NCBI GenBank assembly: GCA_037383445.1
Contig: JARROY010000011.1
Location: forward strand, 1-32,817
Length of the DNA stretch: 32,817 nt
DNA from: Anaerolineales bacterium
GTDB taxonomy: Bacteria; Chloroflexota; Anaerolineae; Anaerolineales; UBA11579
Reading direction: 5' to 3'
The position numbers and the translations under genes are program-made. Shown piece by piece: positions 3 through 21,340 of the stretch (the stretch's first letter is position 1; each line of letters begins with the position of its first letter). The notes under the pieces are model-generated. The model saw nothing but the letters and a program-made list of their open reading frames with translations, was not told where the DNA came from and did not search any database.

Positions 3-152
3 GACGCGGGCGTGCTGATCCAGGGCATGGTGTCCGGGAGACGCGAGCTGATCGCGGGCCTGATGCGCGACGCCCAGTTCGGGCCGTGCGTCATGTTCGG
101 GCTGGGCGGCATATTCGCGGATGCATCCAGAAGTCCGCCTAGGGCAAGTTAA
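3..152 (+). pseudogene. Fragment of ADP-forming acetate/acyl-CoA ligase ATP-grasp (beta) domain, cut off after GGIFA; probably a chimeric contig end
   Basis: Manual translation from base 3 gives DAGVLIQGMVSGRRELIAGLMRDAQFGPCVMFGLGGIFA then DASRSPPRAS*. RDxQFGPxVMFGLGGIF is typical of this family. Bases 1-120 are 85/120 G+C, higher than the following genes appear to be. Confidence 0.75.
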
Positions 153-1570: not shown

Positions 1571-3343
1571 CTATTCTGCTTGGGTGGAATTATAAAGCGG
1601 AAATAGGTCTACGCGCGTCCAAAGAACCACCCAATCTTTTACCAAAGGGGAATCCCGATAGACCAACCAGCGGTCAAAATCTTGTGGCACCGGACGTCCA
1701 TCCCAGAAGCGTTCCAGTTGTAAAGCATGATGCTGCCCGCTGTAGAACTCGCTTAATGAACCGTTTAATTCAAAACTTTGATTTAAGATAGCAGAAGGCA
1801 GCTGGTTCGGGTTGAGTACTGGCTGGTAGCTGGCATTTGGCATATTTCGCAGCAGCCAATGCACCAAAGGAGTGTCGATTTGGTACACCAAATCCACTTG
1901 GTCCTGTGTCCCGGTGATCTGCTCTGAGGCTTCTTCAATCGCCTGCATCAGCTCAGCCGCGTACCCAGAAGAAGGTCCTTCCACCCAAAGTTCACTCGCA
2001 ACTTGGGTTAAATCTGCGGTAAAACCAGACCCAGCGGTTACCAGGTAAAACACCAGGAAAATGCTTACCGACCATGCGACACCCTGGATGGAAGCCTGCT
2101 GAGACCAGCCGCGGTAGACGATAAAGGTCATCACCACGATCAATACCGGGATTAAGAATGTTACCAGCAAGCGCACCGCATACACTTTGGTATTAGCATC
2201 CAGCGACGCAAAATCCAACAGGTTAACCCCCGACTGGAAGAATAAACCATAATTGGTGGTCAATTTAGAAAGGTTGAACCACCAGTAGGCCAGCAAAACC
2301 AGGTAAAAGGCTGTTTCACCCCACACCCACAACCTGTCTTCCTGGGCTGGGGTATGGACAAAGCGGTCAAGAATTGTCCCCGCCAATAGCCATAGGGGAA
2401 TCAATGCCCAAACGGTCATCCAAATCTGGCGTCCCGGGTTGGCCAACATTAATAACAGTGCCGCTAAAAAGGCGCACATCAGAAAAACAAGCTGCGGTTG
2501 ATTGAAGTTCCGCCGCTCAAAGAAGACCAGCAAACCAAACAGCAAAGCCAGAGGTTGGTAGATCGGGAACGCCAGCAAAGCCTGGGCCAATGGGACACCT
2601 TGGGCGCCGCCGCCTCCACCGAACCAATTAACAAAATAGTCTGGGACCGCCTGTAGCATAAACGATAGCCCTTCCGGATAAAGCATGAACAAAGTACCAA
2701 AGGCTGCCAGACAAACCAGCACGCCTATCCCCACCGGGCGTAGTTGGTCTTTTTCCAGCGTAAGAGAGATTCGGTATCCACCGACAAATGAGAACAGCCC
2801 CCAGCTAATAAGCATCACCAATATCCCAAACACCAATGATGGCCCAGAAAGCAGCATCAATCCCCAAAAAATTCCCGCTGCCAGCGTGTGGCTGCGCTGC
2901 CAGAAAAACCATCCGAGTGCCAGAAAGCCCAATGCCATCATCGGACTGCCGGCTTGCCGGGAAAACGCAATCAGCAGTGGATCCAACGCCAGACCAAACG
3001 CGGCGATTAGGGCAGCCTTTCGCCCCAATTGATCGCGCAGAAGATAGGGAAACAAGATGACAGCACTCCCAACCAAAACCGGCAGCAATCTCGCCAGCAC
3101 TTCCCCACTACCAAAAACAATGAATAACAATCCGGTTAGCAAAACATAGGCCGGGTGATTAGCAATTCCAACCGGCTGGCCCTGAGAGACCTGGTAAGCC
3201 TGCCAGGCATAACCGGCTTCATGGGCAGTCAGCATCAAGCGTCCCAATAAAATCAGACGCACCAGCAGAGCGAGCCCCAAAGCCACCAGATACAATCCGT
3301 CTTCAATCCGGATCGACTTATCTTGTCTTACACTGAGATCCAA
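1571..3343 (-). CDS. Polytopic membrane protein, GT-C (PMT/ArnT)-like; resembles the TIGR03663/Agl23 family
   Basis: N-terminal TM helix then RLxxLG...HEAxxA loop, P-x-Y...F, ARLLPxLxG, many hydrophobic helices and a soluble C-terminal region. TTG start overlaps the upstream YYY gene by 16 bp. Confidence 0.6.
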   Translation of the reverse strand: MDLSVRQDKSIRIEDGLYLVALGLALLVRLILLGRLMLTAHEAGYAWQAYQVSQGQPVGIANHPAYVLLTGLLFIVFGSGEVLARLLPVLVGSAVILFPYLLRDQLGRKAALIAAFGLALDPLLIAFSRQAGSPMMALGFLALGWFFWQRSHTLAAGIFWGLMLLSGPSLVFGILVMLISWGLFSFVGGYRISLTLEKDQLRPVGIGVLVCLAAFGTLFMLYPEGLSFMLQAVPDYFVNWFGGGGGAQGVPLAQALLAFPIYQPLALLFGLLVFFERRNFNQPQLVFLMCAFLAALLLMLANPGRQIWMTVWALIPLWLLAGTILDRFVHTPAQEDRLWVWGETAFYLVLLAYWWFNLSKLTTNYGLFFQSGVNLLDFASLDANTKVYAVRLLVTFLIPVLIVVMTFIVYRGWSQQASIQGVAWSVSIFLVFYLVTAGSGFTADLTQVASELWVEGPSSGYAAELMQAIEEASEQITGTQDQVDLVYQIDTPLVHWLLRNMPNASYQPVLNPNQLPSAILNQSFELNGSLSEFYSGQHHALQLERFWDGRPVPQDFDRWLVYRDSPLVKDWVVLWTRVDLFPLYNSTQAE

Positions 3344-5844
3344 TCATCTAACACCTCAACCTGGTAAATCGTTACAGACCCTTGCTGAAAGGCTATCGTC
3401 AGGTTGATAGCGAACTTGTCTTCATAGACGTCATAGGTGGTTCGCTCTAAGTTCCCTACCACGATATAGACAACATGATAACGCTCAATGATCTGAGCAG
3501 CTTCCGACCAATTTCTGACTGAATATAGCCGCGCAATGTCATCTTTGCGCGTTCCCATCTCCTCACCTCCCCCTCGCCACTGCCCTTCATGTCCGGTCCA
3601 ACCCAATAAAGCGGGTTGACCGCTGTTCATTGAAATTCTGGCATATTGAGAATAGCTGCCTCCGGTTGGATGGACCGCTTCTACCAGATTCCCGAGCGGA
3701 ACCTGCTTTAACCACGCCACAGCGGCTTGCTCATCGGGGTTGAGATAATAAGTATTCGCCGCGCCATCTAATTCCAAGGCAGGTTCTGTCTGCGCCTGAA
3801 AAGAGGAGAGTCTGGTTTGCAGTGCCATGGTGGGATAAGTCAGCCCGACAAACATCACCACCACCAGGACCAGCATCACCACTCCTGCAAGAACTCTCCT
3901 GGTTTTTATGGTTGACAGCATCACAGCCATGCCATATGCTGCCACCAGCGCCCAAAGAATCCAGGCCTGGTAATAGAATTTAAAAATCGTGTTCATCCGG
4001 CTGCCGAACAGATCTCGCAAGTAGAAAAATTCGGGGATCAAAACCAAAGCGGCACCCACCACGACCAATGCAGCGGCAAAACGGTGGCTTTCCGGCATTC
4101 GATCCTCGGAAATTACCGATTCCTCATCTTCCTGGCCGGCTGCAGGCCACACCGCGGCCAAAGCAACACCTAAAAGAGAGACCAGTGTTACCGCACTGAG
4201 GAGAGTAGAAGCCCGCCGTGAAAGTCCTTCCCCCAGCAAGGCAGACAAGCTATCCACGCCATACATTCCTAAAAATTGGGTGGGCACTTCATTCAGGGGT
4301 CCGAACGGGAGACCTCTTCCAAGCAGTATCGTGAACAAGATCGATAAACCCCATAAAGACAACCCGGCCATTAGAGCAAGCACCAAGCCCTTAATTAAAT
4401 TATTCAGCTTGCCGCGCTTGAGCACCTGGTAAAACAAAAACACCAGCAGCGGAACGAACAATGTGCCAAACATGATCCACAGATGAACCCCTCGGGTTGG
4501 GTTGATCACATTCGGCAGAATGCCGCCTGCCTGTGAAGAGAAACTGATATAGAACGGCAGGTAGGCCAATACACCACCCAGACCGAAAGCGATGACCAAG
4601 ACAAAGAACTCATACAGCCGGATGCGTGACCAGCCCACCATATCCACCTTTTTCAGCAGGTGCACTCCGGCAAAAATGACCACATACCACGGAAAATCCC
4701 ACAGGTTGAGGAATCCCAGCGCTCCAAACACGAATACGCCCAGGATGAACATGCGCGGACTGAAATTGAATTCCAACTGGAAAAGCCTGAAGCGATCACC
4801 TTCTGCTGGTTGGCTCAGGAACAAATTTAAACTGAGGGTCAGGGCGATAAAGACAAACGGAAACACCAACACATGCGGATGCAGATCGCCGAGGTAGAAA
4901 GAGAAAAACGGGAACTCGTCGATCACTTCCTGGAAATCACCAAAGAAATTGTAATCCGCCACCACGCGGGAAGCCCGCCACCACCACCAGTGGCGCAGTT
5001 GGCCTGGCATCGTATTCCCCGGAGGAGGAAGCCGCAGGTTTTCAAGATTAATCCACTGCCAGAAAGCTGATGACCACACTCCCTGGCTGTTTTGCTGCCA
5101 GAAGGCACCCCGGCCGTGAATAAATTCCAGGAAACCTTCCACATTGCTGATGATCAGGACAAACAAAGGACCAAGAATAGGAAGGGCAGCCAAACTTTTC
5201 TTCCCTGCTGGTTTATAAGCCGCCAGCAGGTTGTACACAATACCATAGGAGCCAATGACCGCCAGGGCAAATACCATCGATAAGCCAAGGTTGAAGCCGA
5301 TCCCGCTGCTGACCCCGCTGAACTTTGTCAGCATCCCGACCATCACGTAGCCAAAGTAGTAATAGGAGATGGCATAATCCGCCAGACAGGGATCAAGCGG
5401 AGGCATCGTCTCTGAGCGCAGAAAGGCGTTGATGAAGGCAAACTCCATTGGCTTTTCCGTCCCGAAAATAGCCGGGTCCATACCCCGCATCAGAAGCAGA
5501 AAAACAAACCCCAGTAAAAAGAGCAGCTCGGTTGTCAGGATCATGGGTCGGTTTTCGGCCAGCCAGGATTTAAACCCTTGCATATCGATCCGCCGCCAAG
5601 CCCACCAACCAGCACCCAACAGGATCACAAACGGCACCAAGTAGCCACCAGCGGAATTGGTCAGCACGCCGAAAGTGCTCCCCAGCCAGAAGAGGTATCC
5701 CCACACGAGCAAACCAAACGCCCGGCTGATGGTATACCCTCGATCTCGGATTGCCGGGAAGAACGAGTAAACCAGCGGGAAGCTTATCGCTCCCAAAACG
5801 CTTACAATCAGATACCAGCTAATTGGACCTAACCACATACTCAT
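3328..5844 (-). CDS. DUF2298 / Chlor_Arch_YYY (TIGR03662-type) membrane protein
   Basis: GTEKPMEFAF, ISYYYFGY, WWWWRASRV, IDEFPFFSFYLGDLHPH, NLWDFP, RMNTIFKFYYQAW, LDG, GWTGHEGQWR. Confidence 0.9.
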   Translation of the reverse strand: MSMWLGPISWYLIVSVLGAISFPLVYSFFPAIRDRGYTISRAFGLLVWGYLFWLGSTFGVLTNSAGGYLVPFVILLGAGWWAWRRIDMQGFKSWLAENRPMILTTELLFLLGFVFLLLMRGMDPAIFGTEKPMEFAFINAFLRSETMPPLDPCLADYAISYYYFGYVMVGMLTKFSGVSSGIGFNLGLSMVFALAVIGSYGIVYNLLAAYKPAGKKSLAALPILGPLFVLIISNVEGFLEFIHGRGAFWQQNSQGVWSSAFWQWINLENLRLPPPGNTMPGQLRHWWWWRASRVVADYNFFGDFQEVIDEFPFFSFYLGDLHPHVLVFPFVFIALTLSLNLFLSQPAEGDRFRLFQLEFNFSPRMFILGVFVFGALGFLNLWDFPWYVVIFAGVHLLKKVDMVGWSRIRLYEFFVLVIAFGLGGVLAYLPFYISFSSQAGGILPNVINPTRGVHLWIMFGTLFVPLLVFLFYQVLKRGKLNNLIKGLVLALMAGLSLWGLSILFTILLGRGLPFGPLNEVPTQFLGMYGVDSLSALLGEGLSRRASTLLSAVTLVSLLGVALAAVWPAAGQEDEESVISEDRMPESHRFAAALVVVGAALVLIPEFFYLRDLFGSRMNTIFKFYYQAWILWALVAAYGMAVMLSTIKTRRVLAGVVMLVLVVVMFVGLTYPTMALQTRLSSFQAQTEPALELDGAANTYYLNPDEQAAVAWLKQVPLGNLVEAVHPTGGSYSQYARISMNSGQPALLGWTGHEGQWRGGGEEMGTRKDDIARLYSVRNWSEAAQIIERYHVVYIVVGNLERTTYDVYEDKFAINLTIAFQQGSVTIYQVEVLDDWISV

Positions 5845-5847
5845 CTC

Positions 5848-8800
5848 CTACCGGCTTTCACCTAAACCAGTAACTGAATCGGACACTTTGTAAATGACGG
5901 TCTGTCCATCCCGGTAGACCTCCTGCCACATATCCCCGTTCAACCGTTCAAATTTATCCAAACCAATTCCAGGATAATTGTTGCGTTCTAACTGGCCTAC
6001 CACGATGTATTCCACGTGATATTGGCGCAGGAATTCCCTGGCAAGTTGTTCATCGTCCATTAAGTAAAATAATTGGATAGCATCTCTCCGGCTGGCAATT
6101 TCGGAAACGGGACTAAACCCTCTTTGCTGGGTTTGGTGCCAATCCCAGCCCAACACGGATGGCAGTCCGGTATAGATGCTGAACCGCGATCCCCAGCGGT
6201 ACAAAGGCGTGTTGGCTTCAACAATCACCGGCGTACCCTGGATATTTTCCTGCATCCAGCGGATGGCGCGGTAGTCCTCAGATAGATCCACTACGCCCCC
6301 TTCGTCAGGATACTCCGAGGTACGCATAAAAGCCATCCCATCAAGGGTATGCGGTGCATCCTCGGACATGCGGTCCTTGATCTTTGCCGTTGTGGCAGTC
6401 AGCGGGAACATCACCGCACCCAGCACCAGCATCGCCAGTCCAATCCGCCACACGGATTGCCAGGAAACGCTCCATCCCCGCAGTTCCCCGATCGTCCAGC
6501 TTAACGCCGCCCCACTGCTGACCGCAAACAGCACCCAGGCCTGGAGATAAAACTTGAAGACCGTATTCATCCGCCCGATGTCCCCAGACAGCACAATCAC
6601 TTCAACCAGGATCGACAGGAAGAGAGCCGTCCCTACCATAAACAAAACCATCCGCTTGCTGTCTTGCATTCCCGGGCGCAGCAGCAACAGCGCCGCCCAG
6701 ATGGCCAGCGGAATTGCCAGCAGGTGAATGCGGGCCCTCAAGAACACCATCAGCCCGGCCATCACCACCAGTGCCAGGGCAACCCCACCCCACAGCCAAT
6801 TACGGTAGGGCTTTAACTTATTGAGTGCAGAAAGCGGGGTAGCCGCCATCCATTGGCGGGTCTCCCACCCCATCCAAAAGACCAGGATAAAGAGGAATAA
6901 GCCCCAATGAACCAGGTATGAGGACAGCGGGGTATGGGTGCCTTTCCAAATCGAGATTTCGCTGTAGGGCAAGCCGTACCAGTGTGCGAATGGCTGGTAG
7001 AGCAAGAAGGTCAGCCCTACCAATCCCACCACTGCCGCCCCTGCCTGTAGAATGCGCGCAAACACAGGCGGCACACGATCTGCCAGCCATTTTGAGGCAG
7101 AACCATACCGCATCATCGCATAGATCACAGCTACGACTCCCAAGGCCAAGTAGGTGGGCAGGTCCCAGGTATTTGTTGGGCGCAGCACCCCGATCGAGAT
7201 CCCGGCAAAGACAAAACTCCAAACGATCTGCCAGCGACTAGCCCCCTTCCAGGCTTTCGAAAACACTACGGAAAAAGCCCAGGCCAGCGCCAGGAACACC
7301 AGAGCCAAGGCCATAAAGTGAGCATGCAGGTCGGCATAGATCGTGGTGAACCAGGGGAATTCGTTGATCGGCTCGGGCTCATTTAATGCCGGGATGACCC
7401 GGCTGGGCTGCCAGTAATACTCCGCTATACCAAACGGGAGGCCGATCCCTCTCAGCATCTGGCCAAAGCCCTGAAAAGTCCAGCTCAGCTTGGTGAAAAA
7501 ACCAATCTCCCTGGTATACGCATCCTGAGCCGCCAGCCGCTGCATGCCTTCAACAATCAATTTAACCGTACCCAAATTGCCCAAAACCGCGGTGAGCAGA
7601 GCAGCCGAGATCCCGGCAACCCATGTGGGAACCTTCAGTCTGGAGTTTGGTGCCTCAGTTTGCGGCTGGTTTTGCTTCCAAACCTGGTACAGGTTCCAGG
7701 CTGCCGAATACGCCCCCGCGGCAATCATGGCAAGAATGGTTGGCAGGACAATATTGTATGCCACCGCCGGCACAATCCCCAGCATCTTCACCAGGGTGCC
7801 GACAAACACAAACCCGAAATAATAATAGTTGATGTAACCCCCGGCATACCAGGGATCATAAGCCGGGAAAGAAACCGTTTTTAAGATGGCATTGAAATAA
7901 GCAAAATCCATCGGTTTTTCGCCGCCCTTGAACGGATGCCAGAGGTCAGGGTTACCGTATCTCACCAGCAGCACCAGGAGGAAAGCCCCCAAGAAAACCA
8001 GTTCTGCGGCCAGATATTTGCGCCAATGGGTGCGCCATGTCTCCACCAGCCACTTACGCTGAACGACCGCCTGCCAAACTCCCAATGTCACCAGCAGCAC
8101 ATAGACCACCAGGATTGCCTGCCGGGTGTAGGGGATGCCCAGCGAACCCGCCAACCAGCTTAAATAGGCCAGCAGAAGCATCGCGGCTGTGCGGACCAGT
8201 GGAAATCCATGGTCCGGCAGGCCAGGCAGCGCCCGGCGCACCAACGGAAATACTGCCCACCCCAGCAAAGAAAGCGTAAGATACCATACGGCTACCGCCC
8301 CCAACCCCGAACGGTTGTACCAAGCACTGGTATCAAACAATTCAGACCAGGTGCCGGCCTGACGCTGCCGCTCTTGCGCTTCCTCAGAAAGCAGCAAGGA
8401 TTTGAAGTTGCTGGCCTGTTTGGGTGTGAGCCGGATGACAGTCTCAAAATCCACCGCACTGAGAATCTCGGTCACCTTAGATTGGTCATAATCAGACTGT
8501 TTTTGAAAGACAAATACCTTCGGGTGATCGTATACCGTAAATGCTTCCTCGGCAAACTGGTCGTTGATCTTGAGCTGGCCAAGAGTTGGGTCCGATTGGA
8601 AGGTTTTGATTAGTTCAAACCCCAGGTTGCCCTCAAACATGCCGGGGTTCGCCACGTTGTAGCACCATTCAATCGTGCGCTCCTCGGGGCAGCCGAGCAG
8701 ATTGCGGTAATAAACTACATCTAACGGATACCTCTCCGGGATGCGGGTAGTGCTGGCCCACTGCCGGCTGGAAGAGATGGTGATATATTCAGACACTTCT

Positions 8801-11079: not shown

Positions 11080-11097
11080 AAATCTAGTTCTCCCTCA

Positions 11098-13281
11098 TTA
11101 CGGGACGTAGTAGATGATAAAACTCTGGGAAGGGTAGCGGCCCTCATACACTGAAGACTTCCCCTCTGGATAGGTTGCCTCCAAAATATCCAGTCCAGCC
11201 GTATCATCGATCTTGACCAGGAACAACTTGGGACTCGGTACAAATAAAGTCTGATCCAAATCCTCAGGCCAGATGGCAAAATCCTTGTTCGGGAATCCGG
11301 CATTGATCGCCACCAGGCGGGTATCCACCCAATAGGGGTAAGCCAAGACCCAAGCCTGGTCTGAGGAACCCACCGTATCGGTAAATTGTTCAACTACTGC
11401 CCCAAGCTCAGACGTATTCCAAACTGACGGTCCGTACTGACCGGGAAAAGTATCGAAGGTCAGGGTGTAATTATGTCCCATCGCAATCAATACCAGGAAC
11501 AAACCCAGCAGCAGGGCAACTCGGTTTCCGACTGGGCCGCTGATATTTTTCCTAACCGCACGCAAAACAGCTTCAATTCCCAGGGCAGCTAAAACAAACA
11601 CGACCACCGCGGCTCCCGCGGCCCGGTTTGGGGCGGGATTCTCTGCCGGGTAAGCCAGCACCAAAGTTGATGGGAGCATTAACACCGGTAAGCCAATCAG
11701 TAAAAATCCATCCTCCCAACGCCGCTCTTTCAAATAACGGAACAAGACCAGGGCAGTTCCCAGCAAAAAGGCCGCCCCAGATACAATCTCCAAACTCGGA
11801 GTATGGGGGATCGTGTTCACCCAGATATTGCCGCTGTCCCAATTGAACATCAGCAGACCATTCCAGACATTCTTCAGGAAAACCCACACCAACGCCAAAC
11901 CGGTGGGCATGGCATTCCCTACTTCGACATTTGTCAGCCGGGTAAGTGTACGGTATGTAAATATCTCAGGCATCTGTGTCCACACCCGCAGCAGGGGTAA
12001 AAATATAATCAGAGCGATAAACGCCACCAGCCCCAGTTTGATGATGGAATCTTGGAGCTTGACCTGTCGGCGGTTATGCAGCCAGTAAAGGAAGAAGACC
12101 AGCACAACCAGAATCGGGACCGCCCTAAACGGAGTGTAGCCATGCAGGCCAATCCCCAGGAAGAGCCCGCTTAAAATAATATACTTGCGCTGGCCAGTCC
12201 GTAAACCGCGCACCAGATAATACAGCGTTGGGGCGGCAAAAGCCGGGTACAGGATAAAGCGCAGCGCCACCCTGGCAAGGATATTAGGCCAATAAGAAAT
12301 CCCACCCAAAACCATCGCCAGCAGCCCAACTCTGCGGTTGCCCAATTCCTTGCCTAACAAGTACAGGTAAGGGAGCATTACAATCCCCATGAAAATCGTT
12401 CCGATTTTCATGCTCAGGAAAGAAATCCCGGTATCAAACAGCTTAATTGTCAAGGCAATCAGGTAGAATTGAAATCCTTCCCGGCCGGTATTTCGAGGGA
12501 AGAAGATGCGGGTTTGGCCCTGGAGCACATCATAGACATCCCAGAGTTTTTCGGCCTGGTCGCTGAACATTTCCGGCACGACTTCGCCCACGTTGTGTGT
12601 CCGAAAGTAGATCACGACCAATAATGCGGCCACCAGCAGAACCGTATTCTTAGAGATCGAGAAACTCCAGCCCTTCTGCCTGAAAAACTCGACCACACGC
12701 CTAGAGAAGTCCCCGAAGTCCGGGCGCGGGAACCAGAACGACCACACTACCAGTCCAAGCCCGACCAACCAGAGGAAAACATTCAGATCGGTAAAAAGAT
12801 TATTCGAAAAGGCATAAAACGCCACCAGCGAAACCAGCATCCCGGCGGTCAGCGGCCTCGGGGCGAATCTGAGGTCATCCTTCTGAATTTCAACCACATC
12901 GGGCACTGCCAGGGAGAGTTCCCCGCGCTGCACAGACCAAAACAGCACCAGCACCGCAACCAGGAACAACCCTCCACCCAAAACACCTTGCCGCAGCGGT
13001 GGATTCAGGGCAAACTGACCTACCAGAGCCAAAAACAATGCCCCCACAGTTCGCCAGGGAATTTTGGTAAACCAAGTTTGCGCGGTTGTAACAACAGGTT
13101 TCTGATAAAGTTGGGAACTGGCTGATTCTTCCCTGGAATACATTTGGGCACCCATCTCTTGATCAGGAATTTCAGGTGCAGGCCCGCGCCAGGGCATTAA
13201 TTTCGCCAGCACATAATCAAGCACTGTCGGTTCGATATTGGGTTGTTGTGAGGATTGTTGTTCTGGTTTCGATTCAGACAT
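11098..13281 (-). CDS. Glycosyltransferase family 39-like (ArnT/PMT_2, GT-C fold) membrane protein
   Basis: R...PEMFSDQAEK loop, FFPRNTGRE, LYLLGKEL, GLFLGIGLHGYTPFR, PNRAAG; many TM helices. Confidence 0.8.
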   Translation of the reverse strand: MSESKPEQQSSQQPNIEPTVLDYVLAKLMPWRGPAPEIPDQEMGAQMYSREESASSQLYQKPVVTTAQTWFTKIPWRTVGALFLALVGQFALNPPLRQGVLGGGLFLVAVLVLFWSVQRGELSLAVPDVVEIQKDDLRFAPRPLTAGMLVSLVAFYAFSNNLFTDLNVFLWLVGLGLVVWSFWFPRPDFGDFSRRVVEFFRQKGWSFSISKNTVLLVAALLVVIYFRTHNVGEVVPEMFSDQAEKLWDVYDVLQGQTRIFFPRNTGREGFQFYLIALTIKLFDTGISFLSMKIGTIFMGIVMLPYLYLLGKELGNRRVGLLAMVLGGISYWPNILARVALRFILYPAFAAPTLYYLVRGLRTGQRKYIILSGLFLGIGLHGYTPFRAVPILVVLVFFLYWLHNRRQVKLQDSIIKLGLVAFIALIIFLPLLRVWTQMPEIFTYRTLTRLTNVEVGNAMPTGLALVWVFLKNVWNGLLMFNWDSGNIWVNTIPHTPSLEIVSGAAFLLGTALVLFRYLKERRWEDGFLLIGLPVLMLPSTLVLAYPAENPAPNRAAGAAVVVFVLAALGIEAVLRAVRKNISGPVGNRVALLLGLFLVLIAMGHNYTLTFDTFPGQYGPSVWNTSELGAVVEQFTDTVGSSDQAWVLAYPYWVDTRLVAINAGFPNKDFAIWPEDLDQTLFVPSPKLFLVKIDDTAGLDILEATYPEGKSSVYEGRYPSQSFIIYYVP

Positions 13282-13320
13282 TTGATTTAAGTCATTGTCC
13301 TAACTGGATTACAAACATCA

Positions 13321-13349
13321 AGTATAACTGCTGGCAGGCAATGTGTACA
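13321..13349 (-). promoter_or_regulatory. Possible sigma70-type promoter for the GT-C gene run
   Basis: Minus strand TGTACA-N17-TATACT, about 40 bp upstream of the ATG at 13281. The -35 is a weak match. Confidence 0.35.
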
Positions 13350-13463
13350 TATTGACATCCGATCGTGATCTCCTCAAATTGGAAACCACAATTCACAGAT
13401 CAAGCAGTTCGAAAGAGCTTTTTGATCGAATTATATCTAGCCATCCACCATTATAGTGAAAGT

Positions 13464-14726
13464 TTAATTTTTGCGTGCGATGAAAAAGGTATAGGTGCCA
13501 TCCGGCTGGGGTTCAGTCCGGGCATATGGGCGGAGGAGCTTTTCCGTCAACCACAGGTTCCAGCGCGTTGGTGAAATGATCCAGCGGTTAAACAGCTTCA
13601 TTGGCAGCAAGCTGGGAGCCCCAAGGTAATGCCCCCACTCCAGCACATGCAGAGAACGAGGGGAAAAATAATGCCAGTAGCGCTCCAGGGTAAACCCGGC
13701 TTGTTCAAGTCTTTCTTGCCAAACCTCAATAGAATCAGCGTGTTCGGTGCGGGAGATACGCATAAACCAATCCCGATATTTTTGCGCCATGCCATTCAGA
13801 CCGAAACTCCCCAGCAGGGTTGGCACTGAAAGCTGCTGGTAATACCCCTGGTTTGGGCAGCAAAATACAAATGGTGCCCCGGGAGCCAGCACCCGGGCCG
13901 TTTCTGCCAGCACTGCGTCGATATGCGGGATATGTTCCAAAACAGAGTTACTCAAGGCACTCGCAAAGCTGCTGTCCGGGAATGGCATCTGCGACCCATC
14001 CGCCTGTACCAGGCCGTTATAAGATTGGGGATATTGCTGGGATGCCACTAAGGGTTCCCACCACGGGTCCAGACCAACATCAATCTTGAAATCAAAGGCA
14101 ACACTGGCAAAATGCCCGTCTCCACTGCCCAAATCTAATACCGGATCGGGCAGGTCCAGCTCCTGGTAATAACTGGCCTCAACCGAACGCAGCAATGCCC
14201 GGAAATATGGCAGAGATTTTAACTGCGGCCAAAGAAAGTCCTGGTCGGTCTGGATGTCAGCCTGGGTAAGGGTTTCGTTGTCCTGGTCGAAAGAAAATCG
14301 CCCCAAAATCTGCCGCCCACTGAGGACCTCGGGCATCCATTCTGAACCATCCGCCCACATTTCATCGTAAGGGATCTGATCCAGTGCGACCCAAAGAGGA
14401 TCGATTTCCCGGCTGGGTTTCGGGTCACCAGCCCACCGATCCACCAAATAGACATACACAATCCGGTCCCATTCAGGTTTAGCAGGGAAATAAAACGTCA
14501 GTTTAGCTGCCCGCTGTAAATCTATTTCCCGAATATCAACATCCAGTTCTTCTTTTACTTCGCGCACAGTTGCATGCAGCACAGTTTCGCCTGATTCAAC
14601 GGTTCCCCCCACCCCGACGATCTTGCCCTCACCAAAACCGGTTTTCTTTCTCGCCAGTAATATTTCAACGGGAACACCCGAGCGAGCGTCCTTTTTAAGG
14701 AACAAACAGATCGTATTCAACAGCAT
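13464..14726 (-). CDS. Fusion of a Nudix hydrolase (MTH1/8-oxo-dGTPase-like) and a class I SAM-dependent methyltransferase
   Basis: Nudix box GGTVESGETVLHATVREVKEELDV, plus KKTGFGEG and IPYDEMWAD. C-terminal half has VLDLGSGDG, QADGSQMPF, NSVLEHIP and RVLAPG. Confidence 0.85.
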   Translation of the reverse strand: MLLNTICLFLKKDARSGVPVEILLARKKTGFGEGKIVGVGGTVESGETVLHATVREVKEELDVDIREIDLQRAAKLTFYFPAKPEWDRIVYVYLVDRWAGDPKPSREIDPLWVALDQIPYDEMWADGSEWMPEVLSGRQILGRFSFDQDNETLTQADIQTDQDFLWPQLKSLPYFRALLRSVEASYYQELDLPDPVLDLGSGDGHFASVAFDFKIDVGLDPWWEPLVASQQYPQSYNGLVQADGSQMPFPDSSFASALSNSVLEHIPHIDAVLAETARVLAPGAPFVFCCPNQGYYQQLSVPTLLGSFGLNGMAQKYRDWFMRISRTEHADSIEVWQERLEQAGFTLERYWHYFSPRSLHVLEWGHYLGAPSLLPMKLFNRWIISPTRWNLWLTEKLLRPYARTEPQPDGTYTFFIARKN

Positions 14727-15880
14727 CAGTCAATTCCCACCAGGCGATCAAAGATTTCTTCGTACTCCCGGGCAGTAGATTCAGGAGCAAACTGTTGGGT
14801 GATTTGAGGAACATCGCCGATATGTTCCTGCGGATTATCCAGCACCTCAATCAAGGACCGGGCGAGCGATTCATAATCCATCAGTTTGAACAGCTTTCCC
14901 ATTCCGGTTTGCAGCACAGGTTGGCGTACGCCGGGCATATCGCTGGCAACTGCTGGGGTCCCGCAGGTCATCGCCTCCACCTGCACCATACCAAACGCTT
15001 CAGTGCTGTTGGTGCTGGGAAGCACTAAAACTTCACACAAATGGTAGAAAGCCGCCAGCTCATCATCTGGAATCAGACCCAAAAACTTCCAACGGTCTCC
15101 CAATTCCTCGATCAACGGGGCCAGCATGGCTGCATACGCTTCTTCTCCCATCACGTCCTGGTGCTGGCCGGCATACAGGACGCGGGCGTGCGGGTATTTT
15201 TCCATCACCAAGGGCAGTGCCCGTACCAAGTACTCGACCCCTTTTTCAGCCGCCAACCTGGCGACCATGCCGATCACCTTATCCTCGGGCTGGATTCCAT
15301 ATTTTTGTTTCACTTGCTCAATAAATTCTTCGTCAACTTGCTGCAATACCACCGGGGGAGACACCGCCTGGATTTTTTCCATATACCGGCTTAAAAACTG
15401 GCTGTGTTCTGCGTAATCTTGCGAGGTGGAAATGATCACATTCGCCATGGCTGCTGAAACGAAATTAGCAATATTGGAACCCAAATTTGCCAGCCAGTTG
15501 ATCAAACCGCTTGGAAGCCTGAGATCGCACTGATACGTCAGCACCACCGGCCTGCCCAGCAAGCGAGCGAGCACCGAGATCGGAGCCGCATCCAACTGGG
15601 GCAAGTGGAGGTTGACAACCTCCGCCCGCCGGATTTCTTTCCAGGCCCGGAAGGGAATAGAGGGCATAATCACCCCCTTGCTCAGGCGCATCAACACCGG
15701 CATCCGCACCACCCGAACCCCGTCAACAATCTCTTCTCTTGGCAAGTTCTTATCGAACTGTGAGGTTAACACGGTCACAAGATGGCCGCGCGCCGCCAGC
15801 GCCCTAGCCAACCTCTCCGTGTAGATGGTCAAGCCAGAATAATGTGGGCGGTAGTAGGTCAAAGCAATTAAAACTCGCAT
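14726..15880 (-). CDS. Glycosyltransferase family 4 (GT-B fold)
   Basis: MRVLIALTYYRPHYSG, LAARGHLVTVLT, RLAAEKGVEYL, LPSTNSTEAFGMVQVEAMTCGTP (EX7E). The stop overlaps the next start (TGATG). Confidence 0.93.
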   Translation of the reverse strand: MRVLIALTYYRPHYSGLTIYTERLARALAARGHLVTVLTSQFDKNLPREEIVDGVRVVRMPVLMRLSKGVIMPSIPFRAWKEIRRAEVVNLHLPQLDAAPISVLARLLGRPVVLTYQCDLRLPSGLINWLANLGSNIANFVSAAMANVIISTSQDYAEHSQFLSRYMEKIQAVSPPVVLQQVDEEFIEQVKQKYGIQPEDKVIGMVARLAAEKGVEYLVRALPLVMEKYPHARVLYAGQHQDVMGEEAYAAMLAPLIEELGDRWKFLGLIPDDELAAFYHLCEVLVLPSTNSTEAFGMVQVEAMTCGTPAVASDMPGVRQPVLQTGMGKLFKLMDYESLARSLIEVLDNPQEHIGDVPQITQQFAPESTAREYEEIFDRLVGID

Positions 15881-15903
15881 AATAATCTCGAAATGATTAA
15901 CGA

Positions 15904-16932
15904 TTAATCTTGTCGGTTCTCAGTACCACGGTTAATGGCTAGGGAGTAAATTTCCTTCAAGGAAATCCCTTCCCGTGTCAGGCTGACAAACCCCAGAATA
16001 AAGACGATGAGCAAATATAAGCCATGAGTCACCAAGCCATGTGCCAGGCCATTAGCCGGGTCTGCCGAAAGCGCCACAAAGGCACTGACGACTGCCGCCT
16101 CGTAAACGCCCAAATTCCCCTGGGTGGAGGGGGCTGCCACGCCTAACGCCGTCACACCAACGACAAATCCCGCTTCAAGCAGGGTGGGATCAGGGTAAAA
16201 AGATGTCAGCACAATCGTATTCCAAGCAATCGAAAGCACCCAGGTGATTCCAATCCAGAAAAAAACTAGGAAAAATCGTTTGGGATCACGAAGCACAGCC
16301 AGCCCACGAAGAACAAGGTCAATCTTTTCCTGTCCCAGAGATTGCAGTCTAGGCCATCTTCCAGTGATCCAAGAAAATAAACGCTGCACCAGATCAGGTT
16401 TGAGCACCATCACATACAACACTGCAAACCCCAGCACCAACAACGCTGCTGCAAAGAGCGCCGCGGTAGTCGCCCACTCTGCGCCGACTACGAAAGGCAG
16501 AGTGCCCAACAACAAGCCCGCCATAAACCCCATCTCGAAGATCCGCTCCACCACCACAGTCGGAAACGCCTCCCAAAATGAGAGCGGAGTGCGGAGTCCC
16601 AACACCAATGCCCTGCCGACTTCACCCAGCCTGAACGGTAAAACAGCGTTCAAGAGGTAGCCGATGGTTTCCGCCGAAAAAGCCAGGGAGAGCGTCGCTT
16701 GACCCTGCAGCAGTATACGCCAGGCTACCGCCCGTGTTATGAACGCTAAGATTAAAATAACCGTCGCCAGCAAGATGCGGCTGATCTGTACTTTTTGGAA
16801 TGCGGCAAAAGTGGCTGCCAAGTCAATCTGAGAAAACATAATCACCACGGCAATTCCGCTCACCAGGATCCCTGGCAGCATACGAGATAAGAACTTCGAT
16901 TTTGTCTTGGGGGTTTGGTTAGAGTCAGTCAT
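15904..16932 (-). CDS. Lysylphosphatidylglycerol synthase TM domain (flippase-like) protein
   Basis: RAVAW, GYLLNAVLPFRLGEVGR, VVERIFE, PSTQGNLGVYE. Start placed at ATG 16932 (MTDSNQ), which overlaps the lepA stop. Confidence 0.85.
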   Translation of the reverse strand: MTDSNQTPKTKSKFLSRMLPGILVSGIAVVIMFSQIDLAATFAAFQKVQISRILLATVILILAFITRAVAWRILLQGQATLSLAFSAETIGYLLNAVLPFRLGEVGRALVLGLRTPLSFWEAFPTVVVERIFEMGFMAGLLLGTLPFVVGAEWATTAALFAAALLVLGFAVLYVMVLKPDLVQRLFSWITGRWPRLQSLGQEKIDLVLRGLAVLRDPKRFFLVFFWIGITWVLSIAWNTIVLTSFYPDPTLLEAGFVVGVTALGVAAPSTQGNLGVYEAAVVSAFVALSADPANGLAHGLVTHGLYLLIVFILGFVSLTREGISLKEIYSLAINRGTENRQD

Positions 16933-20451: not shown

Positions 20452-20460
20452 TGCTATTAT
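20452..20460 (+). promoter_or_regulatory. Extended -10 promoter, leaderless ubiA-mvk transcript
   Basis: TGcTATTAT-TCCGGT-ATG(20467); 6-nt spacer and no SD. Confidence 0.5.
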
Positions 20461-20466
20461 TCCGGT

Positions 20467-21336: not shown

Positions 21337-21340
21337 TCTT

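What the first reader, a model, noticed from the sequence alone, without database searches (positions are those of the whole stretch)
1571..16932. Candidate uncharacterised archaeal-style envelope glycosylation system: five GT-C modules plus flippase, GT4 and Nudix-methyltransferase
Seen: seven co-oriented genes with very short gaps or overlaps, apart from one 182-bp gap. In transcription order they are flippase-like, GT4, Nudix-MTase, ArnT/PMT-like, ArnT+YYY fusion, YYY and TIGR03663-like, continuing into cmk-plsC. Known: GT-C enzymes use polyprenyl-phosphate sugar donors outside the membrane; YYY/DUF2298 proteins occur mainly in Archaea and Chloroflexi and have no assigned function that I know of; LPG_synthase_TM proteins are proposed flippases. 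Inference: a pathway that builds and methylates a lipid-linked sugar in the cytoplasm, flips it, and transfers it in several steps to a surface protein or lipid. I see no Wzx/Wzy, ABC exporter or LCP gene in the locus, so it does not fit the standard capsule or teichoic-acid layouts.
Basis: partly seen in the sequence, partly recalled or inferred. Interest (0 to 1): 0.82.

Follow-up and report, generated by a model that had tools for sequence, protein, structure and literature searches.

The report
Chloroflexota membrane glycosylation cluster with DUF2298
This is a real, conserved gene cluster for adding sugars to the cell surface of Anaerolineae bacteria; its core includes a large membrane protein family of unknown function (DUF2298) that always travels with known sugar-transferring membrane enzymes.

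Summary
All seven keep this order in 8 of 10 relatives' loci. The six from GT4 to the Agl23-like gene recur in 29 of 80 Anaerolineae loci, unfiltered for contig ends.

Only three of the "five GT-C modules" are supported by sequence. The two DUF2298 modules resemble no GT-C profile, Pfam family or solved structure.

The seven-gene unit is specific to the order. The phylum-wide core is a PMT_2–DUF2298 fusion, a free DUF2298, one or two Agl23/TIGR03663-type proteins and an MprF-like flippase domain.

Gene 7 is a degenerate Agl23 relative. The true family member lies on another contig.

A decaprenyl-phosphate phosphoribosyltransferase gene lies 3.2–3.5 kb upstream. It co-occurs with DUF2298 in 128 of 135 DUF2298-bearing genomes in a 201-genome sample.

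Best reading: extracytoplasmic glycosylation from polyprenyl-phosphate sugars, acceptor unknown. This is a new variant of a known kind.

The parts
15904..16980 (-). Gene 1: MprF-type flippase-like membrane protein (LPG_synthase_TM domain only, no synthase domain). Its 5' end overlaps the 3' end of lepA.
   Evidence: PF03706 135.1 bits. TIGR00374 55.8 bits, cut-off 43.2. Homologues lie in the DUF2298 cluster in 6 of 20 loci from other Chloroflexota families and in G137.
14726..15880 (-). Gene 2: GT4 (GT-B, retaining-type family) cytoplasmic glycosyltransferase; specificity unknown.
   Evidence: PF00534 107.2 bits, PF13579 66.1 bits and PF13439 60.1 bits. No NCBIfam equivalog reaches its cut-off. 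The best solved relatives match only the C-terminal half: Tll1590 3.5e-17, PimA 1.2e-14, MshA-like 3.4e-13.
13464..14726 (-). Gene 3: Nudix hydrolase domain (residues 22-133) fused to a class I SAM methyltransferase (residues about 190-350).
   Evidence: NUDIX 51.3 bits and Methyltransf_11 51.3 bits. The Nudix box GX5EX7REVKEE is present with the final G replaced by D, and SAM motif I VLDLGSGDG is at residue 196. The Nudix part is aligned in only 2 of 10 relatives' loci, L014 and L023.
13282..13463 (.). The 182-bp intergenic gap, the only long one in the cluster.
   Evidence: Coordinates. One promoter-like site lies on the minus strand at 13349-13321 (9 of 12 matches). No terminator-like site is in the gap, and terminator-like sites in the whole region are at chance level: 28 found against 26.4 expected.
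11098..13281 (-). Gene 4: PMT_2-type GT-C membrane glycosyltransferase with about 200 extra N-terminal residues holding further hydrophobic segments.
   Evidence: PMT_2 44.1 bits at residues 272-431. hhalign gives 96% to the N-terminal module of gene 5 and 91% to gene 7. D241, E244, R267 and E268 are invariant in 11 of 11 sequences, in the loop after the helix at 210-227.
9787..11079 (-). Gene 5, residues 1-431: PMT/PMT_2-type GT-C module with an HPDERH motif.
   Evidence: PMT_2 45 bits and PMT 41.7 bits at residues 118-256. D51, E52, W42 and R100 are invariant in 11 of 11 sequences, in the loop after the first helix.
8296..9786 (-). Gene 5, residues 432-928: acidic, non-hydrophobic middle domain (69 D/E against 33 K/R), probably extracytoplasmic, of no known family.
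   Evidence: Composition. A profile of 11 sequences finds nothing in the PDB or in Pfam, where 1 of 11 hits DUF7407 at E 0.008. The C-terminal 200 residues are strongly conserved.
5848..8295 (-). Gene 5, residues 929-1743: first DUF2298 / Chlor_Arch_YYY module.
   Evidence: DUF2298 377.9 bits. TIGR03662 522.4 bits, cut-off 300.25. hhalign to gene 6: 100%, E 3e-108.
3328..5844 (-). Gene 6: free-standing DUF2298 / Chlor_Arch_YYY protein. It is a hydrophobic core plus a 166-residue C-terminal soluble domain.
   Evidence: DUF2298 349.4 bits and TIGR03662 469.1 bits. 6915 representatives at 50% identity match at E<=0.001. Conserved motifs: EKPME, PPxDP, ISYYYFGY, DEFPFFS..GDLHPH, RMNT.FKFY.QAW, GHE.QWRG.
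1571..3343 (-). Gene 7: divergent, probably non-catalytic relative of Agl23/TIGR03663 (GT-C-like).
   Evidence: TIGR03663 61.5 bits, below the cut-off of 126.25. No Pfam family. hhalign 91% to gene 4. 86 homologues, two named 'Anaerolineales bacterium' and one 'Chloroflexota bacterium' by their sources, one of them 'glycosyltransferase family 39 protein'. It reads AHE/NHP where the long paralogues read HDE/HGP.
149..1533 (-). cmk (850-1533) and plsC-type acyltransferase (149-853): conserved downstream neighbours, possibly co-transcribed. A functional link is not shown.
   Evidence: TIGR00017 229 bits, above its cut-off; PF01553 79.6 bits. The Agl23-like gene is followed by cmk in 8 of 10 loci and in 48 of 80 loci.
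20185..21336 (+). Polyprenyl-phosphate phosphoribosyltransferase (UbiA family, DPPR-synthase type). It lies 3.2 kb from the cluster start by the longest ORF, 3.5 kb by the family match, and is transcribed divergently. It is a candidate maker of a lipid-linked ribofuranose donor. The true start probably lies between 20296 and 20467.
   Evidence: NF008977 254.5 bits (cut-off 234) and NF008978 246.5 bits (cut-off 207), matched from residue 95. Start candidates are listed. Found in 30 of 31 related genomes. Co-occurrence with DUF2298: 128 both, 7 and 7 one only, 59 neither, of 201 genomes.
21341..22276 (+). Mevalonate kinase, 4 nt after the phosphoribosyltransferase gene (isoprenoid supply).
   Evidence: TIGR00549 263.2 bits, cut-off 163.05. 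The same pair is adjacent in L112.
16925..18659 (-). lepA, directly upstream of the cluster and overlapping it. In this window it is split into two ORFs by a missing 65 nt.
   Evidence: The two ORFs are 18120-18659 and 16925-18208. A 65-nt gap appears against three relatives. Contigs of 3 of 4 runs laid carry 65 extra letters between 18213 and 18214.

Best explanation
The seven genes are the Anaerolineales version of a membrane glycosylation cluster found across Chloroflexota.

Its invariant core is:
- a PMT_2-type GT-C enzyme fused to a DUF2298 module (gene 5);
- a second, free DUF2298 protein (gene 6);
- one or two Agl23/TIGR03663-type GT-C-like proteins (gene 7 here; the long form with an NHL domain has moved to contig C54);
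- an MprF-like flippase-domain protein (gene 1).

In Anaerolineales a GT4, a SAM methyltransferase (with Nudix in this genus) and a further PMT_2 enzyme (gene 4) have joined the cluster.

Proposed mechanism:
1. Inferred: sugars are activated on polyprenyl phosphate at the cytoplasmic face. The phosphoribosyltransferase upstream would give polyprenyl-P-ribofuranose, and ArnC/GtrB-like GT2 enzymes elsewhere would give polyprenyl-P-hexose.
2. Inferred: GT4 and the methyltransferase build or modify a lipid-linked primer.
3. Inferred: the MprF-like and Agl23-like proteins move the lipid-linked intermediates outward.
4. Partly shown: on the outer face the catalytically intact GT-C modules (gene 4 and the N-terminus of gene 5, which keep their acidic loop motifs) transfer sugars. 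Each DUF2298 module, always fused or adjacent to a GT-C-like partner, acts as a second catalytic or acceptor-handling subunit. Gene 7 has lost the Asp and HGP motifs and is probably a non-catalytic partner.

The acceptor is not known. I favour glycans of surface proteins (about 45%) over a lipid-anchored or free envelope glycan (about 30%).
For: Family assignments are.

Synteny in the order:
- DUF2298 is in 30 of 31 genomes.
- All seven genes are in order in 8 of 10 loci.
- Of 80 Anaerolineae loci, not filtered for contig ends: DUF2298 followed by the Agl23-like gene in 64; gene 4 followed by the fusion in 44; the run from GT4 to the Agl23-like gene in 29.

Across the phylum:
- DUF2298 matches in 147 of 201 sampled genomes.
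- In 20 loci from 20 other families, the free DUF2298 is followed by an Agl23-like gene in 16, lies next to the fusion in 14, and has a flippase-like gene in the locus in 6.
- All 4 long Agl23-like proteins tested pass TIGR03663 (238-310 bits). All 4 short ones fail (54-96 bits).

Fusions: 99 of the 120 listed DUF2298 homologues of 1468 aa or more carry PMT_2 or PMT, and 38 of 120 carry TPR families (my count).

Catalytic motifs: D51/E52 and D241/E244 are invariant in 11 of 11 sequences.

DUF2298 topology: its invariant acidic and His residues fall in loops that a crude hydropathy and positive-inside reading puts outside the cell.

Donor:
- The phosphoribosyltransferase scores above its curated cut-off.
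- It lies on the cluster's contig, 2.6-10 kb away, in 12 relatives as well as here.
- Co-occurrence with DUF2298 is 128/7/7/59 of 201 genomes. By contrast murG is present in 47 genomes that lack DUF2298.

Precedents:
- Systems of a polyprenyl phosphoribose synthase, a flippase and a GT-C are established (abstract and Discussion part 1 of PMC11127046).
Against: - No experiment, no RNA evidence and no structural model was available.
- DUF2298 shows no sequence link to GT-C. hhalign probabilities are 0.4-25%. 44 of 44 members hit only PF10060. The PDB gives nothing. Its role as a transferase is therefore a guess.
- The donor link is imperfect. Seven genomes have DUF2298 but no phosphoribosyltransferase match, among them four single-contig genomes of one genus (G040, G076, G085, G130). 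Seven show the reverse.
- In one same-genus genome (G003) the two loci are 1.65 Mb apart.
- In the 14 control genomes the phosphoribosyltransferase model rings only in Corynebacterium, not in the two archaea that hold DUF2298.
- The co-occurrence counts are not phylogenetically independent.
- The GT2 beside the true Agl23 gene in this genome is not beside it in relatives.
- GT4, the methyltransferase and gene 4 are absent from most clusters outside the order, so they may serve another purpose.
- Synteny with lepA, cmk and plsC shows that conserved adjacency here need not mean shared function.
Confidence: 0.6

Rival explanations
1. A lipoglycan or envelope-polysaccharide pathway built like mycobacterial PIM/LM/LAM and arabinan. 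GT4 glycosylates a membrane lipid inside the cell and the MprF-like protein flips it. The GT-C and DUF2298 modules then extend it outside with pentofuranose (ribofuranose) and hexose from polyprenyl-phosphate donors. DUF2298 would be the pentofuranosyl-transferase or polymerase.
For: - A phosphoribosyltransferase above its curated cut-off lies 3.2-3.5 kb upstream, co-transcribed with mevalonate kinase.
- Phylum-wide co-occurrence with DUF2298 is 128/7/7/59.
- PimA and PimB' are among the best solved relatives of the GT4.
- A plsC-type acyltransferase and cmk are conserved downstream.
- A GDP-mannose pyrophosphorylase gene is in the window at 31470-32564.
- The outer layers of Chloroflexota are said to be of polysaccharide or protein, of unknown make-up (passage of PMC13319060).
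Against: - The GT4 match to PimA covers only the generic C-terminal half, at E about 1e-14.
- The DprE1-type ALO domain was not found in this genome and is over its cut-off in only 2 of 31 related genomes, so arabinofuranose is unlikely.
- DUF2298 occurs without the phosphoribosyltransferase in 7 sampled genomes. The phosphoribosyltransferase model also rings in neither of the two archaeal control genomes that hold DUF2298.
- GT4 is not part of the cluster in most other classes.
- There is no link to peptidoglycan. Five DUF2298 genomes have no murG match, and 47 murG genomes lack DUF2298.
Confidence: 0.2
2. The DUF2298 and Agl23-like proteins are not transferases. They form a translocation or recycling machine for polyprenyl-phosphate-linked sugars, or for the free carrier lipid. 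Only the PMT_2 modules transfer sugar.
For: - The only studied family member, Agl23, is described as a flippase, and the purified protein translocated a lipid-linked oligosaccharide (passages of PMC11182771).
- NCBIfam names TIGR03663 'flippase activity-associated protein Agl23'.
- Gene 7 lacks the Asp and HGP motifs.
- DUF2298 has no similarity to any glycosyltransferase family.
- A further flippase-like gene belongs to the core.
Against: - DUF2298 keeps a set of nearly invariant acidic, His, Arg and Lys residues in loops and a conserved soluble C-terminal domain. This looks more like an active site at the outer face than a scramblase groove.
- Three kinds of putative flippase in one cluster would be redundant.
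- A distant 685-aa DUF2298-like gene sits directly upstream of an ArnC/GtrB-like synthase gene in two genomes. That is the place a GtrC-like transferase usually holds.
Confidence: 0.15
3. The genes are merely neighbours with unrelated functions. They would be kept together by slow genome rearrangement among close relatives, as lepA, cmk and plsC are.
For: - Housekeeping genes (lepA, cmk, plsC) are as well conserved in position as the glycosylation genes.
- The GT4, methyltransferase and gene 4 parts are specific to the order.
Against: - The DUF2298 and GT-C-like pairing recurs as gene fusions in 99 of 120 long homologues.
- It recurs as adjacency in 16 of 20 distant families, including lineages where the rest of the neighbourhood differs.
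- Gene spacings are overlaps or under 25 nt apart from one gap.
Confidence: 0.03

Closest known systems
Agl22/Agl23 of Haloarcula hispanica (archaeal dolichol-phosphate hexose synthase and flippase-associated protein; TIGR03663 family)
   Same: - Gene 7 and, more clearly, the 1103-aa protein on contig C54 belong to or resemble TIGR03663.
- In this genome the C54 protein lies beside an ArnC/GtrB-like GT2, as agl23 does beside agl22 by name and function (passages of PMC11182771).
- DUF2298 (TIGR03662) and TIGR03663 both ring in the same two archaeal control genomes.
   Different: - Gene 7 scores below the family cut-off and lacks the DE and HGP motifs.
- The GT2 adjacency is not kept in relatives.
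- The Chloroflexota long forms carry an NHL-repeat C-terminal domain.
- No role for DUF2298 is mentioned in the passages I read.
- The original Agl22/Agl23 paper was not held.
Three-component extracytoplasmic glycosylation systems (GtrA/GtrB/GtrC type; Citrobacter youngae polyprenyl phosphoribose synthase + MATE flippase + GT136 GT-C)
   Same: - A polyprenyl-phosphate phosphoribosyltransferase.
- Candidate flippases.
- GT-C enzymes acting outside the membrane.
- No DprE1-type epimerase found, so ribofuranose rather than arabinofuranose is expected.
   Different: - No MATE or GtrA-type flippase is in the window. The flippase candidates are MprF-like and Agl23-like.
- The synthase has no fused phosphatase domain: relatives' open frames are mostly about 290-390 aa (range 289-581), little longer than the 289-aa match.
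- There are three GT-C-like modules plus two DUF2298 modules instead of one GT-C.
- The synthase is not inside the cluster and is unlinked outside the order.
- That paper's supplementary list of candidate systems could not be seen.
Mycobacterial PIM/LM/LAM and arabinan assembly (PimA/PimB' GT4, DPPR synthase UbiA, GT-C mannosyl- and arabinosyltransferases)
   Same: The combination of a GT4, a DPPR-synthase-type enzyme, several large GT-C-like membrane proteins with outer domains, and an acyltransferase nearby.
   Different: - No DprE1-type domain.
- The GT-C modules are PMT_2-type. Emb/Aft-type families did not appear in the Pfam scans.
- DUF2298 has no counterpart.
- The GT4 similarity is generic.
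Protein O-mannosyltransferases PMT / ArnT-like GT39-GT83 enzymes, and TPR-bearing TMTC enzymes
   Same: - PMT and PMT_2 Pfam matches above cut-off in genes 4 and 5.
- An Asp-Glu motif in the first outer loop of gene 5.
- TPR repeats are fused to DUF2298-PMT_2 proteins in 38 of 120 long homologues. That this resembles TMTC is my recollection.
   Different: - Matches are weak (42-45 bits) and partial.
- No solved PMT or ArnT chain is found by sequence.
- There is a fusion to DUF2298.
- No Ppm1/Dpm1-type synthase is in the window.

Membership tests
GT-C glycosyltransferases of the PMT_2 / PMT type (gene 4 and gene 5 N-terminus) | Pfam PMT_2 or PMT match above the gathering score | tested here: met
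   Gene 4: PMT_2 44.1 bits (cut-off 26.1). Gene 5: PMT_2 45 bits and PMT 41.7 bits (cut-off 22.7).
GT-C glycosyltransferases of the PMT_2 / PMT type (gene 4 and gene 5 N-terminus) | Conserved acidic residue(s) in the first extracytoplasmic loop after the first helix of the module (feature recalled from the GT-C literature) | tested here: met
   Gene 5: D51 and E52 (HPDERH). Gene 4: D241 and E244. All invariant in 11 of 11 aligned sequences. The sidedness rests on a crude hydropathy reading.
GT-C glycosyltransferases of the PMT_2 / PMT type (gene 4 and gene 5 N-terminus) | GT-C fold of a predicted or solved structure | not testable with these tools
No solved chain is found by sequence.
GT-C superfamily (the two DUF2298 modules) | Detectable homology to any GT-C family | tested here: not met
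   - hhalign against gene 4, the gene 5 N-terminus and gene 7 profiles gives 0.4-25%, and 0.4% with deeper profiles.
- 44 of 44 diverse members hit only PF10060. DUF2206 appears once at E 0.27.
- PDB profile searches find no glycosyltransferase.
- The protein-language-model neighbours once DUF2298 is excluded are DUF6541 and DUF1616 at 0.89-0.90, which is a lead only.
GT-C superfamily (the two DUF2298 modules) | GT-C fold | not testable with these tools
The ESM Atlas holds a confident model (pTM 0.92), but its listed structural neighbours are all DUF2298.
TIGR03662 Chlor_Arch_YYY / Pfam DUF2298 (gene 5 C-terminus and gene 6) | Score above the curated cut-off and the YYY motif | tested here: met
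   522.4 and 469.1 bits against a cut-off of 300.25. ISYYYFGY and INYYYFGF are present.
TIGR03663 / Agl23 (gene 7) | Score above the curated cut-off (126.25 bits) | tested here: not met
   61.5 bits and 56 bits in the genome search. The genome's member is C54:2443-5754 at 206.8 bits.
TIGR03663 / Agl23 (gene 7) | N-terminal DE dipeptide and HGP tripeptide (motifs recalled from the family description and seen in the five long members aligned here) | tested here: not met
   Gene 7 reads AHE and NHP where 5 of 5 long members read HDE and HGP. 5 of 7 short paralogues lack the Asp.
TIGR03663 / Agl23 (gene 7) | Neighbourhood with a TIGR03662 (DUF2298) gene (recalled from the family description) | tested here: met
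   Gene 7 overlaps gene 6 by 16 nt. The same adjacency is seen in 64 of 80 loci and in 16 of 20 loci from other families.
MprF (lysyl-phosphatidylglycerol synthase/flippase) | Flippase transmembrane domain | tested here: met
   PF03706 135.1 bits over profile positions 4-302 of 302. TIGR00374 is above its cut-off.
MprF (lysyl-phosphatidylglycerol synthase/flippase) | C-terminal aminoacyl-phosphatidylglycerol synthase domain | tested here: not met
   The protein is 358 aa with the flippase domain only. It is therefore a flippase-like protein, not MprF.
Three-component pentofuranose glycosylation system (Kelly et al. 2024) | Polyprenyl phosphoribose synthase | tested here: met
   NF008977 254.5 bits against a cut-off of 234. 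It lies 3.2-3.5 kb outside the cluster.
Three-component pentofuranose glycosylation system (Kelly et al. 2024) | MATE-family flippase and a GT136 GT-C enzyme in one locus | tested here: not met
   No MATE family is hit in the window. GT136 has no model in the libraries used, so that part is untested.
Mycobacterial decaprenyl-phosphoarabinose pathway | DprE1-type epimerase (FAD/ALO domain) | tested here: not met
   PF04030 has no match in this genome, which is 85% complete. It is over its cut-off in 2 of 31 related genomes.

The most novel reading that the evidence does not exclude
DUF2298 (Chlor_Arch_YYY) founds a new family of outer-face glycosyltransferases or glycan polymerases that use polyprenyl-phosphate sugars. 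It would be unrelated in sequence to known GT-C families and would work as an obligate two-part unit with an Agl23/PMT_2-type partner, either fused or adjacent. The unit would be shared between Chloroflexota and Euryarchaeota. In Chloroflexota it would build the still undefined outer envelope layers, partly from polyprenyl-P-ribofuranose.
Probability: 0.25. Interest if true: 0.8.

Novelty: new variant of a known kind. Interest (0 to 1): 0.55.

Why it matters
The make-up of the Chloroflexota envelope is unresolved. The literature I read says only that the outer layers are polysaccharide or protein.

This work points to a near phylum-wide gene set as a concrete candidate for their synthesis: DUF2298 twice, Agl23-type proteins, an MprF-like protein and a PMT_2 enzyme. 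A lipid-linked ribose synthase co-occurs with it.

It also gives the first functional context for DUF2298. The family has 6915 representatives at 50% identity at E<=0.001, and I found no functional study of it.

Finally, it links DUF2298 to Agl23, the only studied member of the partner family. This makes Haloferax a ready genetic test bed.

Tried and rejected
- **Sequence routes to a fold for DUF2298. All negative.**
  - phmmer of genes 5 and 6 against the PDB.
  - Profiles A2 (81 sequences) and A5 (44 sequences from many families) against the PDB. Only low-complexity membrane matches and a short triosephosphate-isomerase-like stretch came back.
  - hhalign against three PMT_2-type profiles.
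  - A Pfam scan of 44 members at E<=1.
- **The Atlas search** returned only DUF2298. With DUF2298 excluded it returned DUF6541 and DUF1616 at 0.89-0.90. I did not follow these.
- **Profiles of gene 7 and of the middle domain of gene 5** found nothing in the PDB or Pfam.
- **Link to peptidoglycan: rejected.** murG was matched in 177 of 201 genomes. 130 have both murG and DUF2298, 47 have murG only, and 5 have DUF2298 only.
- **Arabinofuranose donor: rejected as unlikely**.
- **GT2 beside Agl23 as a conserved pair: rejected.** They are adjacent in this genome only.
- **Expression.** No RNA holder was listed for 9000-17000.
- **Promoter and terminator scan** was uninformative.
- **Rfam:** no family. 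**tRNA:** none.
- **Complex prediction was not used.** The pair exceeds 1000 residues and any cut would be arbitrary.
- **Literature.**
  - DUF2298: 2 papers, none functional.
  - TIGR03662/TIGR03663/PF10060: 1 irrelevant paper.
  - 'YYY domain': unrelated domains.
  - Chloroflexi with the phosphoribosyltransferase name: 0 papers.
  - Chloroflex* or Anaerolinea with phosphoribosyltransferase, decaprenyl, arabinofuranos* or GT-C: 7 papers, none holding the Chloroflex or Anaerolinea terms.
  - The Agl22/Agl23 paper (doi 10.1111/mmi.14577) is not held.
The candidate-system list in the supplement of PMC11127046 could bear on whether Chloroflexota systems were already noted.

Full report
**1.

One search lists seven minus-strand ORFs at 15904-16980, 14726-15880, 13464-14726, 11098-13281, 5848-11079, 3328-5844 and 1571-3343. 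They run on into cmk (850-1533) and a plsC-type acyltransferase (149-853). Apart from the 182-nt gap at 13282-13463, the spacings are overlaps or at most 37 nt.

Pfam and NCBIfam give the following:
- Gene 1: an MprF-type flippase domain (PF03706 135.1 bits; TIGR00374 above its cut-off).
- Gene 2: a GT4.
- Gene 3: a Nudix domain plus a SAM methyltransferase.
- Gene 4: a PMT_2 protein.
- Gene 5: a 1743-aa fusion of a PMT/PMT_2 module with DUF2298 (TIGR03662 522 bits).
- Gene 6: a free DUF2298 (469 bits).
- Gene 7: a last protein with no Pfam family and a sub-threshold TIGR03663 match (61.5 bits against 126.25).

None of the other ORFs that I scanned in the window is a Wzx/Wzy, ABC exporter or LCP protein. 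The window is one whole contig of a metagenome-assembled genome that is 85% complete. Homologues of gene 7 and the related loci are labelled Anaerolineales or Anaerolineae by their sources.

**2. Conservation within the order.**

DUF2298 was found in 30 of 31 genomes of the order-level sample. It usually appears as a long (about 1700 aa) and a short (about 840 aa) copy in tandem. In G004, G016 and G009 the two copies sit in one open frame of 2475-2595 aa.

In 10 fetched loci, all seven genes are present in the window's order in 8. One locus lacks the methyltransferase, and one has the GT4-methyltransferase pair inverted. lepA precedes and cmk follows in 8 of 10. The Nudix half of gene 3 aligns in only 2 of 10.

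In 80 further Anaerolineae loci, not filtered for contig ends:
- the short DUF2298 is followed by the gene 7 homologue in 64;
- gene 4 precedes the fusion in 44;
- the run from GT4 to the gene 7 homologue is intact in 29;
- 8 loci show a lone DUF2298.

**3. Beyond the order the unit changes.**

In a sample of 201 Chloroflexota genomes, DUF2298 matched in 147. I counted 135 as strong (best E at or below 1e-50). The genomes without a match are mostly small-genome families.

Loci from other classes show a different common denominator: the PMT_2-DUF2298 fusion, the short DUF2298, an Agl23-like gene of about 580 aa, an Agl23-like gene of about 1000 aa, and often the MprF-like gene.

In 20 loci from 20 other families:
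- the short DUF2298 is directly followed by an Agl23-like gene in 16;
- it lies next to the fusion in 14;
- two Agl23-like genes stand in tandem in 9;
- the flippase-like gene is present in 6;
- GT4 with the methyltransferase appears in one locus, and the methyltransferase alone in another.

All 4 long Agl23-like proteins tested are true TIGR03663 members (238-310 bits) with an NHL-repeat C-terminal domain. All 4 short ones score 54-96 bits.

In the window's own genome the long form is on contig C54: 1103 aa, 206.8 bits, PMT_2 plus NHL.

**4. What is DUF2298?**

Every sequence-based test for kinship with GT-C enzymes failed:
- hhalign against three PMT_2-type profiles gives 0.4-25%, and 0.4% with deeper profiles.
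- No PDB chain matches single sequences or two profiles.
- 44 of 44 diverse members hit PF10060 only.

The fold itself could not be examined. The Atlas holds a confident model, but its listed neighbours are all DUF2298.

What the sequence does show:
- a hydrophobic core of roughly a dozen or more segments, followed by a conserved soluble domain of about 165 residues;
- a set of (nearly) invariant polar residues in loops: E in EKPM(E/D), D in PPxDP, the YYY run, WWWR, E in DEFP, D-x-H-x-H, NxWD, D..R.N...K, and GHE.QWRG.

A crude hydropathy and positive-inside reading puts these loops outside the cell. This looks like an enzyme acting at the outer face, but that is inference.

The strongest functional clue is association. 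99 of the 120 listed homologues of 1468 aa or more are fused to PMT_2 or PMT, one also carries Glyco_transf_22, and 38 carry TPR repeats. The free copy sits next to an Agl23-like gene in most lineages. Each DUF2298 module therefore has a GT-C-like partner.

A side observation points the same way. A distant 685-aa relative shares its N-terminal 190 residues with DUF2298 (hhalign 87%). In two genomes it lies directly upstream of an ArnC/GtrB-like synthase gene. In three-component systems that place is held by the transferase.

**5. The GT-C-like modules.**

Gene 4 and the N-terminus of gene 5 are related to each other (96%), and gene 4 to gene 7 (91%). Gene 5 keeps an invariant Asp-Glu pair (HPDERH) in the loop after its first helix. 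Gene 4 keeps D241 and E244.

Gene 7 and its Anaerolineales orthologues keep only the Glu (AHE, ETE, ENE) and read NHP, SHP or VTP where the long Agl23 proteins read HGP. I therefore take genes 4 and 5 as competent transferases, and gene 7 as a probably non-catalytic partner.

**6. Donors.**

The UbiA-family gene at 20185-21336 (plus strand) passes two curated models for decaprenyl-phosphate phosphoribosyltransferase: 254.5 bits against 234, and 246.5 against 207. It is followed 4 nt later by mevalonate kinase.

Distribution of its homologue:
- It is in 30 of 31 related genomes.
- It lies on the cluster's contig, 2.6-10 kb from the cluster start, in 12 relatives as well as here.
- In G003 it is 1.65 Mb from the cluster.
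- In 16 genomes the two are on different contigs.

Across the 201-genome sample the two families co-occur as follows: 128 both, 7 DUF2298 only, 7 synthase only, 59 neither. The unpublished genomes G068 and G211 are among the 128. As a control, murG is present in 47 genomes that lack DUF2298.

The counts are not phylogenetically independent, and the exceptions are real. Four single-contig genomes of one genus have DUF2298 but no synthase match. The synthase model also rings in neither of the two archaeal controls that hold DUF2298.

A DprE1-type domain is missing here and in nearly all relatives. If this donor is used, it is ribofuranose rather than arabinofuranose.

Polyprenyl-phosphate hexose is the other likely donor. 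This genome has ArnC/GtrB-like GT2 genes, one of them convergent with the true Agl23 gene on C54 (222.7 bits to the ArnC model, full length, below its cut-off). That adjacency is not kept in relatives.

**7. Acceptor.**

A peptidoglycan-bound polymer is unlikely. Five genomes with strong DUF2298 have no murG match, three of them 97-100% complete.

Two observations lean towards decoration of surface-protein glycans:
- TPR and NHL domains are fused to the core proteins.

Three observations keep a lipid-anchored or free glycan in play:
- the GT4, whose best solved relatives include PimA, though only over the generic half;
- the conserved plsC neighbour;
- the ribose-lipid synthase.

I cannot decide between these.

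**8. Most likely mechanism.**

1. Sugars are loaded on polyprenyl phosphate inside the cell.
2. In Anaerolineales a GT4 and a methyltransferase prepare or modify a lipid-linked intermediate.
3. MprF-like and Agl23-like proteins bring the intermediates to the outer face.
4. The PMT_2 modules and their DUF2298 partners transfer or polymerise sugars onto a surface acceptor.

What is shown: the family assignments, motif conservation, fusions, synteny and co-occurrence. Every biochemical step is inferred.

**9. Comparison and novelty.**

The kind of system is known: extracytoplasmic glycosylation from lipid-phosphate sugars by GT-C enzymes. Examples are the Gtr-type and pentofuranose three-component systems (PMC11127046: abstract and Discussion part 1 read), archaeal Agl22/Agl23, ArnT and PMT, and mycobacterial LM/LAM.

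What is not described in anything I could search:
- the obligatory DUF2298 partner;
- the phylum-wide core cluster;
- its co-occurrence with a phosphoribosyltransferase.

That TIGR03662 and TIGR03663 tend to share genomes and neighbourhoods is, as far as I recall, already noted in the TIGRFAMs descriptions, so that part is not new. I rate the finding a new variant of a known kind, of moderate interest.

**10. Limits.**

- No structure prediction, no access to earlier scan notes, no supplements and no RNA data.
- The archaeal neighbourhoods could not be fetched because the one genome-contig scan returned only Anaerolineae.
- My transmembrane segmentation is a simple hydropathy window and over-splits helices.
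- Gene labels come from HMMs that I built from 11 sequences per family, not from curated models. The exception is where I checked with NCBIfam or Pfam.

Noticed in passing
window 16925-18659 (break at 18213/18214): lepA is split into two overlapping ORFs because 65 nt present in three relatives are missing here. Contigs from 3 of the 4 metagenome runs laid carry 65 extra letters at exactly this place; the fourth has no cover there. It is probably an assembly error or a strain-specific deletion, not a general loss of lepA.
   Followed up: yes
window 20185-22276 (+): A decaprenyl-phosphate phosphoribosyltransferase-type gene is followed 4 nt later by mevalonate kinase. The same pair is adjacent in L112. 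The longest ORF of the first gene overlaps the divergent hlyIII/trhA gene, so the real start is probably later. A TTG at 20296 has a GGAGG-like stretch upstream.
   Followed up: partly
own genome contig C54 (locus L138) 2443-6740: The genome's true TIGR03663/Agl23 member (1103 aa, PMT_2 plus NHL repeats) lies convergent with an ArnC/GtrB/PgfS-like GT2 gene. This recalls archaeal agl22-agl23. The adjacency is not kept in relatives.
   Followed up: yes
L024 (G018:C36) 974-3031 and L025 (G013:C10) 1003-3072: A 685-aa membrane protein shares only its N-terminal 190 residues or so with DUF2298 (hhalign 87%). It lies directly upstream, about 60 nt away and on the same strand, of the orthologue of that ArnC/GtrB-like GT2 in two genomes. 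No homologue was found in the window's own genome.
   Followed up: partly
relatives G004, G016, G009; other classes, e.g. L111, L118: In some genomes the long and short DUF2298 genes form one open frame of about 2500 aa. In Chloroflexales-type genomes a protein of about 2500-2700 aa holds PMT_2, two DUF2298 copies and TPR repeats.
   Followed up: partly
window 13464-14726 (-), residues 1-150: The Nudix domain fused to the methyltransferase aligns in only 2 of 10 relatives' loci (L014 and L023). The others start at about residue 150. Its Nudix box is nearly canonical. Its role is unexplained.
   Followed up: partly
window 22284-23726 (-), 26244-27362 (+), 27726-28883 (-): Three ORFs of 480, 372 and 385 aa have no Pfam or NCBIfam family. 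The first has about six hydrophobic peaks and the third about two.
   Followed up: no
window 29084-31435 (-): Topoisomerase I with an N-terminal DUF5679 domain and zinc ribbons.
   Followed up: no
window 31470-32564 (-): A mannose-1-phosphate guanylyltransferase (GDP-mannose supply) lies 14.5 kb from the cluster. A link to the cluster was not tested.
   Followed up: no
window 9000-17000: Near-identical DNA (65-82% of sampled words) is held by 20 metagenome runs from 20 studies. They are mostly labelled marsh metagenome, with one rhizosphere and one marine sediment.
   Followed up: no
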